DNA of 64,000 bases from a virus, in the IMG/VR virus record IMGVR_UViG_3300022680_000058, positions 64,001 through 128,000 of that record; one strand, written 5' to 3'. The notes beneath the pieces were generated by a model. It was not told the origin of the DNA. It ran no database searches and saw only the letters and a program-made list of their open reading frames with translations. Position numbers and translations under genes: made by a program. This document shows, in pieces, positions 38,414 through 50,590 of the stretch. Within the stretch, counting starts at the first letter, position 1. Each line of letters opens with the position of its first letter.

Positions 38414-38454
38414 AAAAAACGTAGCCCCTCCGGCTGGGGTGAACCGGAGGGGCT
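38414..38454 (-). terminator. Rho-independent terminator
   Basis: AGCCCCTCCGG-N10-CCGGAGGGGCT, then ACG and a T6 tract on the minus strand. Confidence 0.8.
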
Positions 38455-38595
38455 TTCCTGTAACAGGGGGGGGTACTGTCACCCGAACCGATGGCTCGGA
38501 AAGACTATTCAAAGCTTCCCCTTACGAACTCAGCGACTATTCATTCGCAGGTAAAAGATCGCGTCTTTGAACAGCCTTTCCAAACCACCCGTATA
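38414..38595 (-). ncRNA. Putative ~180-nt structured small RNA
   Basis: Own promoter and terminator; 25-bp stem with 5 G-U pairs on the minus strand; hairpin with a C-rich loop. Confidence 0.7.
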
Positions 38596-38600
38596 CACCT

Positions 38601-38629
38601 ATCATGGTGTCATGGTATCCGACTGTCAA
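38601..38629 (-). promoter_or_regulatory. Promoter of the small RNA
   Basis: TTGACA-N17-CATGAT; shares TTGACAGTCG..CATGATAGGTG with 49255-49283. Confidence 0.7.
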
Positions 38630-44878: not shown

Positions 44879-46318
44879 CTACGCCTCCCTCAACGCACCA
44901 ATGAGCTGATCAGACAGCGACTCCAATCGCCGCTTCTTCCCCATAAACTGCTCGAACCGCTGCCTCTGCTCACGATTGAGCTTGATCCTACTGAACTGCT
45001 GCCCCACATACCCGCTAAAGAGCTCTGCGAACTCCTCTGCATCATCAGTTCCACCGTATTTCGACGGGAACTTCACCTTCCCAAACCACTCCTTGAATCG
45101 ACCACGATCATCATGGCTCATGAACTTGAACCAATACCTATGGCCCAATTCATGAATAATAATGTCGGCATCCGTATCATTGCTGTAGATGTCCACGCCA
45201 TCAAGAACACGAGAATACGCCGCTGCTGCCTTTATGGACGTTTTGAAAACAGCCTCATACGATCCAGGCGGAAGCTTGATGAAATCCCCATACCACAGAC
45301 GCGATAGACCTCGACGCCTCAAAAGCGCCTCAACCTTCCTGAGTTCAGAAACAAGCTTGTTCCTGTGTGTCGGTGACATCCCCTTGGTGCTTGCCAGGAA
45401 AGCACGATCGAATCTCTTCGCCTCACCACCAGAGACCCTCATCTGACTTGTCATCTTCTCTTTGCGAGGGTCCTGAGCAATATCCTTGAACACCAGGTTC
45501 ACACGACCAATATGGACAACATCCTCAACGGGGACGCCAGGGCGGGTCCCATGCTCTGATGGAGCATATCTCCCACCAGTATCACCCTTAGCTTTCACGA
45601 GCCTTGAAAGCGACCTCAGGAGCCGCCCAGAGATAGCCTTCGTAGCCTCCTCAACCCCTTCATCGGCCTTCGCAGGGATACTCCTCAACATCCTGGCATA
45701 TTCATCCACAGACCTGAACGTGTTGTAGAACACCGGCTCCCCAGAGAATGAAAACTGCCCCTCAGGATGAGACTCGTTCTTGTAGAACGTGATCGCCCCG
45801 ATCGCGTCCTTGATCGCCTCCTCAGCCTTCTCGATCTCCTCCACAGTCTTCTTCACTGGCCCAAACTTCTCTTTTCGGTCCTCGTCCGCTTCCTTCTCAA
45901 TTTTGACGAGCATGTCATGCATCTTTGGGTCTTCAGACTTCAGCTTTTTCTTGTAAGCTGGAGTCATCCCCGAGACCTTTCGGAAAGCCTCACGGCTCCA
46001 GAGACCCTTCGTCCAATACAGATCCGTCTTGAGCTGCTCGATGGCATTCTTGACCGAGGTCAGATACTCGATAGCATCGTCGGCAGCCTTGGCGTACTCA
46101 TCCCATGTCCCGACCTCCTTGACATCCTTTGGCGGTCTCCCTGGGTAATCCTTGACCTTGTCGGCGATACCCTTCCACCACTTCCGAATCCCAGAGATCC
46201 ACTCATCGTCAATCTCATGTCTCTTCCTTGGATTTACCCTGCGATGCATTTGTTGTGGGGTAGGGACCTTGTACGAGCCCGCCATCGCCGCTTCGAGCAA
46301 AACATCGGAAAGTCTCAT
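44879..46318 (-). CDS. Putative virion protein with a C-terminal zincin metallopeptidase
   Basis: MRLSDVLLEAA..YKVPTPQQMHRR; HELGH...SKYGGTDDAEEFAELF. Confidence 0.65.
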   Translation of the reverse strand: MRLSDVLLEAAMAGSYKVPTPQQMHRRVNPRKRHEIDDEWISGIRKWWKGIADKVKDYPGRPPKDVKEVGTWDEYAKAADDAIEYLTSVKNAIEQLKTDLYWTKGLWSREAFRKVSGMTPAYKKKLKSEDPKMHDMLVKIEKEADEDRKEKFGPVKKTVEEIEKAEEAIKDAIGAITFYKNESHPEGQFSFSGEPVFYNTFRSVDEYARMLRSIPAKADEGVEEATKAISGRLLRSLSRLVKAKGDTGGRYAPSEHGTRPGVPVEDVVHIGRVNLVFKDIAQDPRKEKMTSQMRVSGGEAKRFDRAFLASTKGMSPTHRNKLVSELRKVEALLRRRGLSRLWYGDFIKLPPGSYEAVFKTSIKAAAAYSRVLDGVDIYSNDTDADIIIHELGHRYWFKFMSHDDRGRFKEWFGKVKFPSKYGGTDDAEEFAELFSGYVGQQFSRIKLNREQRQRFEQFMGKKRRLESLSDQLIGALREA

Positions 46319-46423
46319 CGAGCACACCTCGCCCATCCTCCCGAGTATACACCGCCACTCGGATAGAGCCTATCCGTCTGATTTGATTGGGTCTCAGAAT
46401 GGGCAATTGATTGCCCACTCCAG

Positions 46424-46460
46424 AAAGAGAAAGGGCCACCATAGTCTCACCATGGCAGCC
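46424..46460 (-). terminator. Terminator after tmRNA
   Basis: GGCTGCCATGG-TGAGA-CTATGGTGGCC followed by CTTTCTCTTT. Confidence 0.65.
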
Positions 46461-46478
46461 CTAACGTATTGAAAACAT

Positions 46479-46844
46479 TGGAGGCGGTCAGAGTCGAACT
46501 GACGTCCACACCCCCTCTGCTCGTGAGCTCTACGTGCGTATCTCCTGATCAATCTCGGCGTCATCGAGTTCAGGAGCAAACTCTCTGAGCCAGTCGTGCG
46601 AGATGTCAGCCGCGCAGGTTACAGAATGAGTCACACACGAGACACTCACTCACTACGCGCCGCTAATGGCGCCCCTTGTTCCCATAGCAGCAGTCTGGGA
46701 GGGACGTGAGATTACGCCGCCAGGCTCATCTCAGGATAGCTGTCAGTGTTGGCAACTGGTTGTTCGTCCTGTTTGACGCACAAGGACGATCCTCGGCACG
46801 CTCACACAAACGTCATGGGATCTGTCGAAACCTTTTTCGCCCCC
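46479..46844 (-). ncRNA. ssrA: tmRNA, tag ANTDSYPEMSLAA* (46712-46753)
   Basis: 5' GGGGGCGAAAAAGGTTTCGAC; acceptor GGGGGCG/CGCCTCC-A with G3-U70; T-arm GTCAG-TTCGACT-CTGAC; tag ends LAA-stop; CCA not encoded. Confidence 0.95.
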
Positions 46845-46869
46845 TCAAGTCAAAGTGTCTTTGGTGAGC

Positions 46870-47718
46870 TCAGCCACCTTCTTCGATGTCCTCGATGATT
46901 CCGGCGAGACCCTTGATCGCCTTGGCCTCGGAATCTCCGATCGCCCAGAGCACACCCTTGATGAATCCGTCTCCGAGAACTTTCGCTGTCTTCGGGTTCT
47001 CGATGACCTTCCGGGCGAGTGACTTCTTCGGGGCGAGCACGACAGGACTCTCCGTCGTACCCTTCTGCCCCTTCGCATCTCGAACCGTCGTTTTCCCCGT
47101 CTCCAGCATATTCTCCAGAGCAGCCTTCTGCTCTTCCGGAGAGAGGTCGGCGAGTTCCACAGCCGCACTCATCGAGATCTTCCCAGCCTCGACAGCGTTT
47201 TTGACCTCGGGAATGCAGTCCAAAACCTTCAGCCAGTTGGCGATGGCCGTAGCAGAGACACCGAAGATGACGCCGACCTCGGCGTTGTTCTTCCCCCTCT
47301 GCTTATACCGCTCGGCCTTTTCCGCCTTGGCGATCGGGTCATCATCGACGCGGTGCTCGTTCTCACTCAGAAAGATCCCCATGATGTGCTCATCACTTCC
47401 ACGTTTGAGCATGGCAGGGACCTCGATGGGCTGCTCTCCCATCGACAAGAGCTTCTCATTCGCCTTTCTGGCTGCGACCACACGACGTCGACCGGCGACC
47501 ACGAGAGCCCTGTCCCCATCCTTCCGGATCGCGATGGGCTGGATGATACCGTTGACCATGATGTTCTTGACCATCTCCGGAGAAATCGGCTTCTTGAGCC
47601 GCTTCATGTCGTAGAGGTCATGCTCCGGACCATCGTCTGTATCGAGACCAATAATCACAAGGTCTTTTGGATCAAACGAGTACGCCGTCACCCGCTTCTC
47701 GAAGGCGTGCTTCCCCAT
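46870..47718 (-). CDS. ParB/Spo0J-family protein
   Basis: GIIQPI, VAGRRR (GxxRxxA), SENEHR and HTH; start at MGKHAF. Confidence 0.88.
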   Translation of the reverse strand: MGKHAFEKRVTAYSFDPKDLVIIGLDTDDGPEHDLYDMKRLKKPISPEMVKNIMVNGIIQPIAIRKDGDRALVVAGRRRVVAARKANEKLLSMGEQPIEVPAMLKRGSDEHIMGIFLSENEHRVDDDPIAKAEKAERYKQRGKNNAEVGVIFGVSATAIANWLKVLDCIPEVKNAVEAGKISMSAAVELADLSPEEQKAALENMLETGKTTVRDAKGQKGTTESPVVLAPKKSLARKVIENPKTAKVLGDGFIKGVLWAIGDSEAKAIKGLAGIIEDIEEGG

Positions 47719-47741
47719 ATCTCCATCTCCGTCTTTCTTGC

Positions 47742-47897
47742 TCACCCTGGAACTCCAATCAGAGCTGCGAGGAAACCAATGGTTCCTCCGATATACCAAG
47801 GGGCCATGATGACAGCGAGCAATATCGCACCAGCAACGATGTTCAACCCCTCGGCAATCATCCTGACCAGCGACTCAACCATCTTTGCCCACGTCAT
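47742..47897 (-). CDS. Small hydrophobic membrane protein (51 aa)
   Basis: Hand translation MTWAKMVESLVRMIAEGLNIVAGAILLAVIMAPWYIGGTIGFLAALIGVPG, with a GGAG RBS. Confidence 0.5.
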   Translation of the reverse strand: MTWAKMVESLVRMIAEGLNIVAGAILLAVIMAPWYIGGTIGFLAALIGVPG

Positions 47898-47929
47898 GGA
47901 CCATCTCCAGAATCAAATCAAGCACTGTG

Positions 47930-48060
47930 TCGCGATGACAAAGTGTACACCACACCGCCGGGTAAGGCGGCGACAGGCGGACAAACCTGCTCCTCTGGGG
48001 TTTCAATCCAGCGTGCGTTCTGGGGTGGCAGCCCCAATGTCCGATCACTTGTCATCACGA
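47930..48060 (-). ncRNA. Closed-stem multi-hairpin RNA (array element)
   Basis: Terminal stem TCGTGATGACAAGTG/CACTTTGTCATCGCGA (G-U pair on the minus strand) encloses four hairpins. Confidence 0.55.
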
Positions 48061-48092
48061 GCGCCCCTCTGCCAAGGGAACGACACACAATG

Positions 48093-48230
48093 CGGTAGGG
48101 TAGGCTGGACTCGAACCAGCTAGTGACACGGAGACACTCTTTTTTGAGTATCAGAATGGCGACGAAATCAAAACGACCCATTCCGACTAGCAACTTCCGT
48201 ATCGCCACGCTCCCTGTGAGCTCTCACCCC
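48093..48230 (-). ncRNA. tRNA-like RNA with an enlarged domain in place of the anticodon loop
   Basis: Imperfect acceptor GGGGTGA/CTACCCT-A-CCG, D-arm GCTC-ACAGG-GAGC, T-arm GCTGG-TTCGAGT-CCAGC; 138 nt. Confidence 0.7.
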
Positions 48231-48235
48231 AAAAA

Positions 48236-48377
48236 GGAAGTCTAGCCTTTCTCCTCAACTAAAAGCACAACACTTCAAAGTGCTATGAATCGCCTAATTA
48301 GGGCGGTCTAGTCTCGATCCTGGCACACGTAGTCCAAAAGTCCCTTGCAGCAACAGGGCGGTACTGGGCTGACTTCC
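48236..48377 (-). ncRNA. Closed-stem RNA bracketed by two tRNA-like elements
   Basis: GGAAGTCAGCC...GGCTAGACTTCC terminal stem with internal hairpins. Confidence 0.55.
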
Positions 48378-48530
48378 TGGTGACGATGGCTGGACTCGAA
48401 CCAGCGCCTCCCCTCGATACTTCCAGGGCTACCTTCCTCTACAAGGTTTCGGTCTCCTAATCCCTTGCAGGCGGGTCATCGCTCAATATGGAGGTACCAA
48501 TTCCACGAGCCCCGCTTAGTACACATCGTC
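48378..48530 (-). ncRNA. tRNA-like RNA with encoded CCA and an enlarged anticodon domain
   Basis: Perfect acceptor GACGATG/CATCGTC-A-CCA and T-arm GCTGG-TTCGAGT-CCAGC; 153 nt. Confidence 0.75.
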
Positions 48531-49065
48531 AATTCGCGCTTGCTTTTCTTGACAACCAATCCGGACAAGGCGAGATGCTGGGCTTCCAGCATCGAACCTC
48601 GAAAAATTGTCCCTGGCGATTCGCCAGACGCCAAGCGCCACCTCACTCTCAAGTCTGTCCGGCCAGATTCCTCCACCTGGCTCCAGTTTCAGTCCGCACA
48701 ATGCGGAAACCGTCGCACCATCGAGCTCAACCACCACCCGACAGCACAGACCTTTCTAGGCCCACTCCAACCAGGGCACCACACGCCCTCGGACAGCTTC
48801 AGTGGAAAGTCGAGGACCCGCCCCTCGATGAGACCTGACGCGCCCATTACAACGTCCGTCTCTTCCCAGCCGGGAGACAGAGACCAAAGAAAAGTCCCGA
48901 GGCCATGCCAGATGGTTTTTCTTTCATAACACCTGGGCGACCAGTCTCCCTTATCGAGTTCTTCCGCATTGATCGAGGGTGGTCGACTCAAACCTCACAC
49001 GGCGACTGCACCGTATGGGTGGCGCCCATGATTGACACGCCTCGCCTCCACGAATGCTTAGAACC

Positions 49066-49154
49066 CGGTGGGAAGCCGGGGAATCGAACCCCAAGGCCCA
49101 GTGAAAACGACGTGAAGCAACCCGTGTAAGCTTCTATCATTTATGCCGCTTCCC
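49066..49154 (-). ncRNA. tRNA-like RNA without a recognisable D or anticodon stem
   Basis: Perfect acceptor GGGAAGC/GCTTCCC-A-CCG and T-arm TGGGG-TTCGATT-CCCCG. Confidence 0.65.
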
Positions 49155-49254
49155 ATGGCGCGAACAAAACAAGAGTACATGGACTCTTTATCGGAACTCT
49201 GCCCTGACCGACATGAAAGGAGAGCATTCACTCTCATCTGTCCGCGTCCCACCT

Positions 49255-49283
49255 ATCATGATGCTGTGAACAGCGACTGTCAA
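49255..49283 (-). promoter_or_regulatory. Promoter of the ncRNA array
   Basis: TTGACA-N17-CATGAT; the -35 box overlaps the upstream stop codon. Confidence 0.7.
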
Positions 49284-50200
49284 GAATCTTTTTTCACCTC
49301 GCCAGTACTTTCTTCCTCGTATCTCTCCAAAGCCCTCTTCGCCTCACCTATGGCGAGCTCACAAGCATTCAATGGAACCAAAAGCTTCTTGACCGCTTGG
49401 CCCTCCACACTCTTGATCCACTCCCTGACCTGGTCGACAGTGACAGGCGCCTCCCCATGCCTGAGGATAGAACTCGCCTCAGCCCCCATGGAAACCCACT
49501 TACCCGAAGCCATGGCGAGGACTTCAAGAGGCTGTTCGAGTTCACGACGCCTCTTCTTGAGCACCTTCCTCTCATCCTCCATCCTCAAGCGAGCTCTCTC
49601 TAAATCCTGCCGCTCCCTCTTCACGAGCCTCTCGACCATCACGTCGATCTGTTCAGGCCGAAGCCAGAGACCCTCGAAGAAGTAGTGCCGATGCTTCACC
49701 TGATCCAACTGGACCGCCAGAGCTCGAATCGTAGAGAGTGCCAACTCCTCAGGGAGCGGCTCGATCTTGCGATGCTTCGCAACCTTCACCTCTCGAATCT
49801 TCGAGCCGTTCTTCGTCGCGACCATGAGCCCCCAACCCTCTGGGACCTCATCAGGCTTCACGAGCCCACTGGGAACCGCGAAGTAGCACTTGTGGAAGTT
49901 TTCCTCGACCCACTTCCGCTTGAGAGGGTTCTCCATCTCCTTCCGGAAGTCCGCCCGAGACCTTTTGACTTCGTAGGCAACCCGAGTAAACCCCTTGCTG
50001 GGCCAGCAGTTGAAAGCCGCGACATCGATCCGCCCTTCGCGACCGTCACCGTATCCCACCCCGGCACGAAGCTCTGTCACCACGACCCACTCTGTTCGGT
50101 TCGTGTGACGAGCCCTCAGGAGTTCCTCAATGTTGATTTGTGACTTCTCTCTCTTAGGCTCGAAACCGAACCTAGAAAGAACCTTTGGGGAGTCCACCAC
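49280..50200 (-). CDS. MmcB-like PD-(D/E)XK nuclease-fold protein with a coiled coil
   Basis: EL..RIDV..YEVKRSRADF..E..K..YFAVP..EVPEGWGL. Confidence 0.75.
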   Translation of the reverse strand: MVDSPKVLSRFGFEPKREKSQINIEELLRARHTNRTEWVVVTELRAGVGYGDGREGRIDVAAFNCWPSKGFTRVAYEVKRSRADFRKEMENPLKRKWVEENFHKCYFAVPSGLVKPDEVPEGWGLMVATKNGSKIREVKVAKHRKIEPLPEELALSTIRALAVQLDQVKHRHYFFEGLWLRPEQIDVMVERLVKRERQDLERARLRMEDERKVLKKRRRELEQPLEVLAMASGKWVSMGAEASSILRHGEAPVTVDQVREWIKSVEGQAVKKLLVPLNACELAIGEAKRALERYEEESTGEVKKDS

Positions 50201-50590
50201 TACTCCATGGAGGAGGATTCGGGCGGCTCTGGTTCATCACCACTGACGGCGCTCTTGATCTGCTCTTTGGTGTAAACGAGCGGCGCCTCCTTCTCGACTC
50301 GCCTGACGGTCATCCTGAGGAGCTTCATCCTGTCGCCGATTTCCTTGTCGAGGCTGGCCCTCTTCAACTCCAGCTCTTCGATCTCTTCAGCGAGCGCAGC
50401 CGACGAGGAAAACACCCCAGCGGACCACGCCGTCTCAGGCAAATCTGCGACCCATTCGATCTTCTCCACGAGCTCTTTTGCTGTGACCTTTTTCGGCATA
50501 CTGCTTCTCCTTTGGCTACTACTACAGCAGAGCCACACTATACCACAAAGATGCTCTGTGCCATAATATCGAAAAGGTTGGAGGCACAGG

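What the first reader, a model, noticed from the sequence alone, without database searches (positions are those of the whole stretch)
47930..49283. Promoter-driven ncRNA array: anticodon-less tRNA mimics alternating with closed-stem RNAs
Seen: the ~1.3 kb has no credible CDS and starts at a TTGACA-N17-CATGAT promoter on the minus strand. Elements in transcription order: a four-way-junction RNA (49249-49157), tRNA-like 1 (49154-49066), a long hairpin-rich block, a closed-stem RNA (48662-48561), tRNA-like 2 (48530-48378), a closed-stem RNA (48377-48236), tRNA-like 3 (48230-48093) and a closed-stem RNA (48060-47930). Packing is exact: the 48377 RNA begins on the base after the CCA of tRNA-like 2 and ends five Ts before tRNA-like 3. 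Established: RNase P and tRNA 3'-processing enzymes read the acceptor stem and T-arm, which are the parts kept here. Inference: the tRNA-like units act as processing punctuation that releases a set of unknown RNAs, and may also be functional mimics. tmRNA lies ~1.1 kb downstream and KhpA ~1.3 kb upstream, suggesting an RNA-based host-takeover or anti-defence locus.
Basis: partly seen in the sequence, partly recalled or inferred. Interest (0 to 1): 0.92.

Follow-up and report, generated by a model that had tools for sequence, protein, structure and literature searches.

The report
Anticodon-less tRNA-like array in phage
An uncultivated large phage with no ordinary tRNA genes carries a 1.35-kb non-coding insert, between a conserved promoter and its parB–tmRNA genes, that encodes three tRNA-shaped RNAs lacking an anticodon; they most likely mark cutting sites for host tRNA-processing enzymes, but there are no relatives or expression data to prove this.

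Summary
The core observation holds. Window 47898-49254 (minus strand) has no coding signal. It starts at a TTGACA-N17-CATGAT promoter. It contains three tRNA-derived units with an intact acceptor stem, a canonical T-arm, A73 and CC, but no anticodon arm. ARAGORN and Rfam call none of them.

Shuffled genomes give 0.15 such units per genome; this gap has three. All three have U at position -1.

Two details fail:
- The "four-way junction" folds as a long bulged hairpin.
- The closed stem at 48662-48561 is not supported once it is folded in context.

Unit 2, the 48377 RNA, unit 3 and the 48060 RNA are predicted with pair probabilities of 0.84-1.0.

New here:
- The promoter is conserved in five relatives (about 45% amino-acid identity), where parB follows within 62-163 nt. 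The array is therefore a lineage-specific insertion into the leader of a parB(-tmRNA) operon.
- No sequence homolog was found anywhere I searched.
- No expression data could be obtained.

The closest known things are T4 species 1 RNA (rnaC), plant mitochondrial t-elements, and the insert-bearing tRNA genes of large phages.

RNase P punctuation is plausible but not shown. The anti-defence or host-takeover reading has no support.

This scan has reported similar anticodon-less tRNA-like arrays in other phage genomes. None resembles this one in sequence.

The parts
49255..49283 (-). Sigma-70-type promoter, TTGACA (49283-49278) N17 CATGAT (49260-49255). The -35 overlaps the TGA stop codon of the upstream gene.
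   Evidence: The same arrangement is found in relatives L002, L006, L008, L010 and L168.
49157..49249 (-). 5'-terminal long bulged hairpin (93 nt), starting at the likely transcription start. It is not a four-way junction.
   Evidence: MFE -34.4 kcal/mol, z -2.9. Outer helix probability 1.0 in context.
49066..49154 (-). tRNA-like unit 1 (89 nt). Acceptor GGGAAGC/GCUUCCC, no D-arm, one long arm with an 11-nt loop, T-arm UGGGG-UUCGAUU-CCCCG, then A73 and CCG.
   Evidence: Acceptor probability is 1.0 if the transcription start is at or after 49249 and 0.07 if earlier. No single deletion gives an ARAGORN tRNA.
48663..49065 (-). About 400 nt of hairpin-rich non-coding block, unassigned.
   Evidence: No coding signal. 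No Rfam match at E up to 10 except noise.
48561..48662 (-). Proposed closed-stem RNA 1; not robust.
   Evidence: It folds closed in isolation, but its closing helix has probability 0.00 in transcript context.
48378..48530 (-). tRNA-like unit 2 (153 nt). Acceptor GACGAUG/CAUCGUC, three internal hairpins forming a five-way junction, T-arm GCUGG-UUCGAGU-CCAGC, then A73 and CCA.
   Evidence: Acceptor probability 1.0 and T-stem 0.84. Rfam tRNA partial hit of 19 bits. Deletion scan gives only mutually incompatible weak tRNA calls.
48236..48377 (-). Closed-stem spacer RNA 2 (142 nt), followed by UUUUU (48235-48231).
   Evidence: z -2.1. Closing helix probability 1.0 in context.
48093..48230 (-). tRNA-like unit 3 (138 nt). 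Acceptor of 6 pairs plus an A-C mismatch, D-arm GCUC-ACAGG-GAGC, an 11-bp arm ending in a three-way junction in place of the anticodon arm, a T-arm identical to unit 2 over 18 nt, then A73 and CCG.
   Evidence: Acceptor probability about 0.98 and T-stem 0.98. No single deletion gives an ARAGORN tRNA.
47930..48060 (-). Closed-stem spacer RNA 3 (131 nt, 15-bp closing helix). It could be the 5' stem of the orf51-parB mRNA after processing.
   Evidence: z -3.0. Inverted repeat I1. Closing helix probability about 1.0.
47742..47897 (-). 51-aa ORF with one hydrophobic helix. GGAG lies upstream, and its TGA stop overlaps a GTG start of parB. Absent in relatives.
   Evidence: No family hit.
46870..47799 (-). 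ParB-like gene (HTH_ParB, ParB_N).
46476..46844 (-). Phage tmRNA with tag ANTDSYPEMSLAA and G3-U70, starting 25 nt after the parB stop codon.
46432..46462 (-). Strong intrinsic terminator (14-bp stem plus a U-rich tail). It is the only strong terminator downstream of the promoter.

Best explanation
A lineage-specific 1.35-kb non-coding insertion sits in the leader of a conserved promoter -> parB-like -> tmRNA transcription unit of an uncultivated phage (record of about 148 kb).

It encodes three tRNA-derived RNAs of 89, 153 and 138 nt. Each keeps only the 'top half' of a tRNA: acceptor stem, T-arm, A73 and CC(A). The anticodon arm is replaced by other stable helices. Structured spacers lie between the units.

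Proposed mechanism, all of it inferred:
1. Host RNA polymerase makes one precursor, from about 49249 to the terminator at 46432.
2. Host RNase P cuts at the 5' end of each unit and of the tmRNA.
3. Host 3' nucleases and the CCA-adding enzyme finish the 3' ends.

This would release stable tRNA-like RNAs of the T4 species 1 RNA type. It would also release the spacers (5' hairpin, 48377 RNA, 48060 RNA) with defined ends, and detach the orf51-parB message with a protective 5' stem.

Shown: the sequence features, the lack of coding signal, the conserved promoter, and the status as an insertion. Not shown: transcription, cleavage, stability, or any action in trans.
For: - Non-coding: no frame scores as coding between 47900 and 49280, while the flanks do. 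No protein family hits.
- Units are real: three T-arm plus acceptor (at least 6 of 7 pairs) plus NCC elements, against 0.15 expected per shuffled genome, all within 1.1 kb on the strand of the flanking genes. In about 0.75 Mb of unselected phage loci only 2 such elements escape ARAGORN.
- Selection on the top half only: 36 top-half pairs carry 1 mismatch and the T-loops are consensus. The anticodon and D regions are unrecognisable and enlarged by 60-80 nt.
- RNase P features, read directly: 12-bp acceptor/T stack, consensus T-loop, A73-CC, and U at -1 in all three units. My estimate of the chance of three U at -1 is about 0.01.
- Modular folding survives in context: unit 2, the 48377 RNA, unit 3 and the 48060 RNA have pair probabilities of 0.84-1.0.
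- Promoter: 10 of 12 consensus positions, and conserved in position (-35 over the stop codon) in five relatives.
- Operon: the tmRNA, itself an RNase P substrate, starts 25 nt after parB, and the only strong terminator follows it.
- Precedents: T4 rnaC in the T4 tRNA cluster has the same build (139 nt, T-arm, weak acceptor closure, large insert) and its function is still unknown (PMC9697503). Plant mitochondrial t-elements direct RNase P/Z cuts (PMC1920247).
Against: - No homolog of the array was found in INPHARED, IMG/VR, JGI metagenomes or species-representative genomes, so there is no covariation evidence.
- No expression or end-mapping data.
- All eight syntenic loci of relatives seen, seven with DNA, lack the array, so it is dispensable for this phage lineage.
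- The region is only modestly more structured than the genome average.
- One proposed spacer RNA does not hold up in context.
- If punctuation were the only role, minihelices of about 35 nt would be enough. The large internal domains are left unexplained.
- The acceptor of unit 1 competes with a leader sequence if transcription starts before 49249.
Confidence: 0.55

Rival explanations
1. Trans-acting tRNA mimics. The units are the functional products. They would be stable RNAs that titrate or exploit host factors reading the tRNA top half: RNase P, the CCA-adding enzyme, T-loop modification enzymes, EF-Tu, tRNA-directed defence nucleases, or an aminoacyl-tRNA synthetase that ignores the anticodon. 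Processing would be only the means of making them. This is compatible with the best explanation and adds a function to it.
For: - The internal domains are large and stably folded rather than minimal.
- Units 2 and 3 share an identical 18-nt T-arm.
- An unrelated phage contig (L118) has an 85-nt anticodon-less element with an acceptor and T-arm identical to unit 1 and the same 54-nt inner length, yet an unrelated inner sequence. This hints at selection on top-half sequence.
- Unit 1's acceptor is the one used by class II tRNA-Tyr/Ser of large phages, and unit 2 keeps a class II-type D-loop motif. From established knowledge, the class II synthetases SerRS and LeuRS do not read the anticodon.
- A precedent exists for a top-half-only RNA acting in trans: the TLD-only tmRNA of phage DS6A, where a similar molecule inhibits tmRNA (PMC4131195).
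Against: - No G3-U70 in any unit, so alanine charging or SmpB-type mimicry is not indicated.
- No phage-encoded partner was found: no SmpB, CCA-adding enzyme, RtcB or Ro60.
- Identical acceptors may simply reflect descent from a common phage tRNA type.
- No conservation data.
Confidence: 0.2
2. Decaying tRNA cluster. The array is the wreck of a former phage tRNA gene array next to the tmRNA. It is transcribed or not, but has no function.
For: - The phage has no intact tRNA.
- Relatives lack the array.
- No homologs were found.
- Unit 3 has an A-C mismatch and two G-U pairs in its acceptor.
- Unit 2 contains scrambled tRNA-like pieces: a D-loop motif and an anticodon-arm-like hairpin, ACCUU-GUAGAGG-AAGGU.
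- Large phages do carry tRNA genes with inserted sequence (PMC6784885).
Against: - Neutral decay should hit acceptor and T-arms as hard as the D and anticodon arms. Here all three top halves are essentially intact while all three lower halves are gone.
- U at -1 and A73-CC are kept in all three units.
- The inserted parts fold better than shuffles (z -2.3 to -3.0).
- The array sits directly behind a conserved promoter.
Confidence: 0.17
3. Interrupted true tRNAs. The units are tRNA genes carrying insertions that are removed to give working decoders.
For: - Removing one segment from unit 2 gives ARAGORN-callable tRNAs. One example is a class II 'tRNA-Ser(AGA)' with a perfect 5-bp anticodon stem and a long variable arm.
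- Other large phages have arrays of tRNA genes with 32-57-nt inserts at the anticodon loop (Lak phages, PMC6784885).
Against: - ARAGORN's intron mode at default stringency calls nothing.
- No deletion rescues units 1 or 3.
- Unit 2 gives 407 solutions with four incompatible anticodons and poor D-arms.
- The inserts would lie outside the anticodon loop.
- They are far too short for group I introns, and no Rfam intron match was found.
Confidence: 0.04
4. A DNA-level element next to parB, such as a partition site, replication origin or packaging site, rather than RNA genes.
For: It lies directly upstream of a ParB-like gene, and the region holds inverted repeats.
Against: - No iterated repeats or repeated palindromes lie within it.
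- The genome's recurrent palindrome TGGGCAATYRATTGCCCA is absent from the array.
- The strand-specific tRNA features cannot be explained at the DNA level.
- Relatives with the same parB lack the region.
Confidence: 0.04

Closest known systems
Bacteriophage T4 species 1 RNA (rnaC) and species 2 RNA (rnaD), small stable RNAs in the T4 tRNA cluster
   Same: - Phage-encoded and co-located with other stable RNA genes.
- rnaC is 139 nt, with a canonical T-arm (CCGGG-UUCGAAU-CCCGG) close to its 3' end, a terminal acceptor-like closure and a large structured insert instead of an anticodon arm. Units 2 and 3 are 153 and 138 nt.
- Function still unknown (PMC9697503).
- Not in Rfam.
   Different: - No sequence similarity beyond the T-arm.
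- T4 has eight true tRNAs beside it, whereas this phage has none.
- Here there are three units alternating with 130-540-nt structured spacers.
- The acceptor stems here are far better (7/7, 7/7, 6/7) than in rnaC.
- Processing and stability are shown for T4 (from my own knowledge of the 1970s literature, not checked here) and untested here.
Plant mitochondrial t-elements (Hanic-Joyce 1990; Forner 2007, PMC1920247)
   Same: Non-canonical tRNA-like structures that keep the GGTTCRANYCC T-arm and an acceptor stem. They are embedded in longer transcripts and act as cis signals for RNase P and RNase Z, which define the ends of neighbouring RNAs. Some accumulate as stable RNAs with non-encoded C/CA tails.
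   Different: They are organellar rather than phage, and are usually of tRNA size. They are single elements next to mRNAs, not an array. Ends are mapped experimentally there and not here.
Insert-bearing tRNA genes of large phages ('enigmatic introns' of Lak megaphages, PMC6784885). Examples seen here: L161, L164, L165 and the 143-nt element of L163.
   Same: Large-phage genes with intact acceptor and T-arms and tens of extra bases in the lower half. L163's element shares unit 2's acceptor, its A73 and its size class, and ARAGORN does not call it even in intron mode.
   Different: Most of those keep a recognisable D-arm and anticodon stem, and are called as tRNAs once an intron is allowed. The three units here are not. 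Those sit inside ordinary tRNA arrays.
tmRNA tRNA-like domain and the TLD-only tmRNA of mycobacteriophage DS6A (PMC4131195)
   Same: An RNA with the top half of a tRNA only (acceptor plus T-arm, no anticodon arm), encoded by a phage. Here it also sits in the same operon as a full tmRNA.
   Different: No G3-U70 alanine identity pair, no tmRNA-type D-loop sequence, and no Rfam tmRNA score beyond the bare T-arm (13 bits against 47).
YrlA / bacterial Y RNAs (PMC4201824)
   Same: Non-coding RNAs with a tRNA-like module. Some are cut by RNase P and receive CCA, and they occur in some phages.
   Different: - No Ro60/TROVE gene in the record.
- The YrlA model scores 9.9 bits against 69.
- In YrlA the RNA ends leave through the Ro-binding stem, whereas here they leave through the acceptor stem.

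Membership tests
Canonical tRNA (Rfam RF00005) | 7-bp acceptor stem, a 5-bp T-stem with a T-loop of the UUCRANY type, and a discriminator followed by CCA | tested here: met
   All three units. Unit 3 has 6 of 7 acceptor pairs. Units 1 and 3 encode CC followed by G.
Canonical tRNA (Rfam RF00005) | Anticodon arm: a 5-bp stem with a 7-nt loop containing U33 and R37, at the canonical distance | tested here: not met
   - No unit has one in its MFE or centroid fold.
- ARAGORN default and intron modes find 0 genes.
- The deletion scan gives nothing for units 1 and 3 and incompatible weak calls for unit 2.
Canonical tRNA (Rfam RF00005) | Score at or above the Rfam gathering threshold (29 bits) | tested here: not met
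   The best hit is 19.0 bits, E 2.5, covering a sub-part of unit 2. Units 1 and 3 have no hit.
tmRNA, or TLD-only tmRNA | G3-U70 pair in the acceptor stem (alanine identity) | tested here: not met
   Position 3-70 is G-C, C-G and G-C in units 1, 2 and 3. The phage's own tmRNA does have G3-U70.
tmRNA, or TLD-only tmRNA | Match to the Rfam tmRNA models beyond the T-arm, with a tag reading frame and pseudoknots | tested here: not met
   Only a 15-nt T-arm match of 13.3 bits against 47. ARAGORN tmRNA mode gives calls only at relaxed thresholds, and they are inconsistent.
YrlA / Y RNA | Encoded next to a Ro60 (TROVE) gene | tested here: not met
   No TROVE match in the 148-kb record, which is estimated 77% complete.
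YrlA / Y RNA | Match to RF02553 at the gathering score (69 bits) | tested here: not met
   9.9 bits, T-arm only.
Phage tRNA-like stable RNA of the T4 species 1 (rnaC) type | Phage gene of about 140 nt with a canonical T-arm near the 3' end, closure by its 5' and 3' ends, a large structured insert, and a position in a stable-RNA gene cluster | tested here: met
   T4 rnaC was folded here. Units 2 and 3 have the same build and lie in one operon with the tmRNA.
Phage tRNA-like stable RNA of the T4 species 1 (rnaC) type | Sequence homology to rnaC | tested here: not met
   Only the T-arm aligns, so the resemblance is analogy of build, not shown descent.
Phage tRNA-like stable RNA of the T4 species 1 (rnaC) type | Accumulates as a discrete, stable, processed RNA during infection | not testable with these tools
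The host is unknown.
t-element-like processing signal | The GGTTCRANYCC motif within a non-canonical cloverleaf that has an acceptor stem | tested here: met
   GGTTCGATTCC and GGTTCGAGTCC (twice), with acceptor stems.
t-element-like processing signal | Element ends coincide with mapped ends of neighbouring transcripts | not testable with these tools
   No RNA data.
Intron-bearing phage tRNA (Lak-type) | Called as a tRNA once an insert in the anticodon loop is allowed | tested here: not met
   ARAGORN -i at default stringency finds 0 genes here. With the -i0,200 intron option it finds such genes in L161, L164 and L165.
Known large or structured ncRNA families (GOLLD, ROOL, OLE, RNase P RNA, 6S, skipping-rope and the rest of Rfam 15) | Covariance-model match | tested here: not met
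   Nothing at gathering scores. Only noise at E up to 10 over 46000-50500.

The most novel reading that the evidence does not exclude
The locus is a phage 'stable-RNA operon' that uses tRNA punctuation to make up to seven separate non-coding RNAs plus a tmRNA from one promoter.

On this reading the three class II-tRNA-derived, A73-bearing top-half RNAs are chargeable carriers or decoys that work without an anticodon. They would act on a host factor that reads only the acceptor/T-arm half of tRNA: a synthetase, EF-Tu, RNase P, the CCA-adding enzyme or a tRNA-directed defence system. The released spacers would be new functional RNAs.
Probability: 0.12. Interest if true: 0.8.

Novelty: new variant of a known kind. 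Interest (0 to 1): 0.52.

Why it matters
Phage genomes are annotated for tRNAs with tools that require an anticodon arm, so top-half-only tRNA-like genes go unseen. This locus is a clean case. The phage has no ordinary tRNA, yet it has three such genes and a tmRNA behind one conserved promoter.

Together with T4 species 1 RNA, whose function is still unknown after 50 years, it suggests a wider and neglected class of phage RNAs. Other evidence points the same way: the unannotated elements met here in other phage contigs (L118, L163, the L098 group), and similar arrays reported earlier in this scan.

If the units are cut by RNase P, this would be a natural bacterial-virus counterpart of mitochondrial tRNA punctuation and of engineered tRNA-guide RNA arrays. 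If they act in trans, they would be a new way for phages to touch the host translation or RNA-processing machinery.

Tried and rejected
Searches for homologs:
- BLASTN of the array against 50,697 phage records: no match. The tmRNA also gave no match.
- The search for related loci with both flanking proteins in IMG/VR: no close relatives. With an alignment, only distant ones at 35% identity or less.
- Exact-pattern scans for the 3' halves of units 2 and 3 in IMG/VR: nothing.
- Paired T-arm pattern in JGI metagenomes: two ordinary bacterial tRNA-Gln/Lys arrays and one permuted-tmRNA-like contig, none homologous.
- Unit 1's 3' half in 185,579 species genomes: one chance match inside a coding region. 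No bacterial tRNA with that exact 3' half was found as a donor.
- BLASTN and nhmmer of the array against 1.09 Mb of fetched loci: only T-arm/acceptor matches.
- Earlier scan notes: no look-alike stretch in other genomes.

Candidate partners and families:
- YrlA/Ro60, SmpB, CCA-adding enzyme and RtcB in the phage record: all absent.
- A CsrB-like sponge: the GGA motif is not enriched (26.5 per kb against 25.7 per kb).

tRNA detection:
- ARAGORN at relaxed thresholds gives mutually inconsistent junk models.
- Single-segment deletion scan: described under the rival explanations.

Other:
- MITE-like repeats: there are no repeated families, and the terminal inverted repeats all differ.
- The global MFE of the whole 1.36-kb RNA without a span limit merges domains and was not used as evidence.
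Full report
**Context.** The window is bases 64001-128000 of a 147,979-bp IMG/VR virus record with inverted terminal repeats, estimated 77% complete. Genes around the finding are phage-like: UvrD-type helicase, ParB-like proteins, a MT-A70 methylase and a phrog_5429 'DNA repair' protein. The whole record has one tmRNA (46476-46844, minus strand, tag ANTDSYPEMSLAA) and no tRNA by ARAGORN. Rfam at gathering scores finds only the tmRNA.

- A codon-usage log-odds trained on the phage's own long ORFs gives +0.3 to +0.5 bits per codon in the correct frame of both flanking genes. No frame scores above about 0.05 between 47900 and 49280 on either strand.
- Ten ORFs in the gap have no Pfam or PHROG match.
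- The minus strand carries three T-arms: UGGGG-UUCGAUU-CCCCG at 49093-49077, and GCUGG-UUCGAGU-CCAGC at 48405-48389 and again at 48120-48104.
- Each T-arm is followed directly by a 7-nt strand that pairs with a strand 54-118 nt upstream (7/7, 7/7 and 6/7 pairs). Then come A, then CC.
- A scan for this combination finds three in the real genome, all here. One hundred dinucleotide-type shuffles give a mean of 0.15 and a maximum of 2.
- In about 0.75 Mb of unselected phage loci only two such elements escape ARAGORN.
- ARAGORN (default and intron modes) and Rfam do not call the units. The best tRNA score is 19 bits for part of unit 2, against a threshold of 29.

**Which details fail.**
- The RNA at 49249-49157 folds as one long bulged hairpin, not a four-way junction.
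- I folded the whole transcript with a 220-nt span limit. The acceptor and T-stems of units 2 and 3, and the closing helices of the 48377 and 48060 RNAs, have probabilities of 0.84-1.0. The closing helix of the 48662-48561 RNA has probability 0.00.
- Unit 1's acceptor forms (p=1.0) only if transcription starts at or after 49249, which is what the -10 position predicts. Otherwise GGUGGGA in the leader competes with it.
- In arbitrary register, the region is only modestly more structured than the same strand of the rest of the genome (mean z -0.46, P=0.003).

**Are they hidden tRNAs?** I deleted every possible single segment from each unit and ran ARAGORN at default stringency.
- Units 1 and 3 never become callable.
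- Unit 2 gives 407 calls with four incompatible anticodons and poor D-arms.
- One of these, a class II 'tRNA-Ser(AGA)', has a perfect anticodon-like stem and a long variable arm. This shows that unit 2 descends from a class II tRNA, not that it decodes.
- Unit 3 keeps a typical D-stem (GCUC/GAGC) with a short loop. An 11-bp arm ending in a three-way junction stands in place of the anticodon arm.
- Unit 1 has no D-arm and one long arm with an 11-nt loop.

**Promoter and operon.** TTGACA-N17-CATGAT at 49283-49255 is a 10-of-12 match. It is one of about ten TTGACA-N15-19-NATNAT sites in the genome; my own estimate of the chance expectation is about 1.4.

Homologs of the upstream 306-aa protein (about 45% identity) led to syntenic loci. 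In L002, L006, L008, L010 and L168 the same arrangement recurs: the -35 TTGACA lies over the stop codon of that gene, and a -10 CATAGT or CATATT follows 17 nt later. So the promoter is real and ancestral.

In those relatives parB starts 62-163 nt after the upstream gene's stop codon. Here 1.35 kb plus a 51-aa ORF intervene. The array is therefore a lineage-specific insertion into the leader of the parB transcription unit.

Several relatives carry a tmRNA a few genes after parB, with tags ANLDNYPQERLAA and ANTDDYVVQAAA. In this phage the tmRNA starts 25 nt after parB, and the only strong terminator follows it at 46462-46432. I infer that the array, orf51, parB and the tmRNA form one transcript. 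Such a transcript must in any case be cut by RNase P to free the tmRNA.

**Mechanism.** RNase P and the tRNA 3'-end enzymes recognise the acceptor/T-stem stack, the T-loop and the RCCA end (established knowledge; reviewed in PMC4919913). These are exactly the parts kept here.

All three units have U at -1, read. From my own knowledge of the RNase P literature, this is the leader base bacterial RNase P prefers.

The most economical reading is a processed precursor. The units would be released as stable tRNA-like RNAs. The spacers would gain defined ends. The parB message would be freed, with the 48060 stem at its 5' end. This step is inferred; nothing here shows transcription or cleavage.

**Comparison with known things.**
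- T4 rnaC (species 1 RNA) lies beside T4's tRNAs. Folded here, it has a canonical T-arm 10 nt from its 3' end, a weak acceptor-like closure and a large insert, 139 nt in all.
- Rfam has no model for rnaC, so the Rfam negatives do not exclude this kind.
- The function of rnaC is still called unknown (PMC9697503).
- Only the T-arm aligns with the units here.
- Plant mitochondrial t-elements are the best-documented case of non-canonical tRNA-like signals that define RNA ends (PMC1920247).
- YrlA, tmRNA-TLD and intron-bearing tRNA memberships were tested and failed.

**Relatives by build, not by sequence.**
- A pattern for unit 1's acceptor around any T-stem found 63 IMG/VR contigs. Most carry class II tRNA-Tyr/Ser genes of large phages with acceptor GGGAAGY/GCUUCCC.
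- Three groups lack D and anticodon arms: unit 1, an 85-nt element in L118, and a 68-nt element in 21 near-identical contigs.
- The L118 element has an identical acceptor, an identical T-arm and the same 54-nt inner length as unit 1, but an unrelated inner sequence.
- A pattern for unit 2's acceptor found a 143-nt element in L163. It sits inside a normal tRNA array, and ARAGORN does not call it even with introns allowed. The same pattern found arrays of insert-bearing tRNA genes in L161, L164 and L165.
- Large phages thus show a range from interrupted tRNAs to anticodon-less tRNA-like RNAs. The units here sit at the far end of that range.
- Earlier reports of this scan describe similar arrays in other phages. 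None shares sequence with this one.

**What is missing.**
- No homolog of the array was found, so there is no covariation evidence.
- No read data could be obtained.
- No phage-encoded partner was found.
- The host is unknown.
- The 'anti-defence or host-takeover' reading rests on neighbours (KhpA, tmRNA) that are conserved in relatives without the array. It is unsupported.

**Verdict.** This is a genuine, unannotated set of three tRNA-derived, anticodon-less RNAs in a promoter-driven non-coding insert. It is best read as a processed stable-RNA leader of the parB-tmRNA operon (confidence 0.55). A trans-acting mimic role is possible on top of that. Inert tRNA wreckage is the main rival. It is a new variant of a known but poorly understood kind.

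Noticed in passing
window 38418-38629 (-): A twin of the array promoter (TTGACAGTCG ... CATGATAGGTG) drives a non-coding RNA of about 175 nt. The RNA is made of a 25-bp near-perfect hairpin plus a strong terminator. Its MFE is -85 kcal/mol with z -6.3, far more structured than anything in the array. An RBS and the ATG of the next gene follow. No Rfam family matches.
   Followed up: partly
window 46401; 8 more genome sites (7926, 29315, 40306, 63844, 77124, 87983, 122457, 131221): The palindrome TGGGCAAT(T/C)(G/A)ATTGCCCA occurs 9 times in the 148-kb genome, once just after the tmRNA terminator. It could be a phage terminator, an operator or a ParB site.
   Followed up: no
L094:916-1498 (+): A metagenome contig holds a 580-nt non-coding gap (z -5.4) with two T-arms identical to those of units 2 and 3. 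The acceptor 3' strand lies upstream of its 5' strand, which is a permuted layout. The second T-arm matches the two-piece beta_tmRNA model at positions 86-149 (E 1.3e-7). ARAGORN calls nothing.
   Followed up: partly
L118:5845-5929 (-); L098-L117 and L119, e.g. L099:9337-9404 (+): Unannotated anticodon-less tRNA-like elements in unrelated phage contigs share unit 1's acceptor and T-arm exactly. One is 85 nt, with the same 54-nt inner length. The other is 68 nt, occurs in 21 near-identical AT-rich contigs, and shows T-stem changes that restore pairing.
   Followed up: partly
L163 (229-kb phage contig); L161, L164, L165: L163 has a 143-nt ARAGORN-negative tRNA-like gene with unit 2's acceptor, between tRNA-Leu and tRNA-Ser in a normal tRNA array. 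L161, L164 and L165 have runs of adjacent tRNA genes that each carry a 32-57-nt insert at the anticodon loop.
   Followed up: partly
L168:6866-7405 (+): A syntenic relative has its own TTGACA promoter after parB, followed by about 500 nt of G-rich non-coding sequence. It has no tmRNA, tRNA or Rfam match and no similarity to the array. The parB neighbourhood seems to be a hotspot for variable non-coding cargo in this phage group.
   Followed up: partly
L002:9499-9849, L003:2631-2981, L008:10645-10995, L009:7913-8263: Relatives carry tmRNA genes near parB with different tags (ANLDNYPQERLAA, ANTDDYVVQAAA). In L002 and L003 the gene caller placed an 86-aa ORF over the tmRNA. In L002 a SpoU-type RNA methylase sits between parB and the tmRNA.
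   Followed up: no
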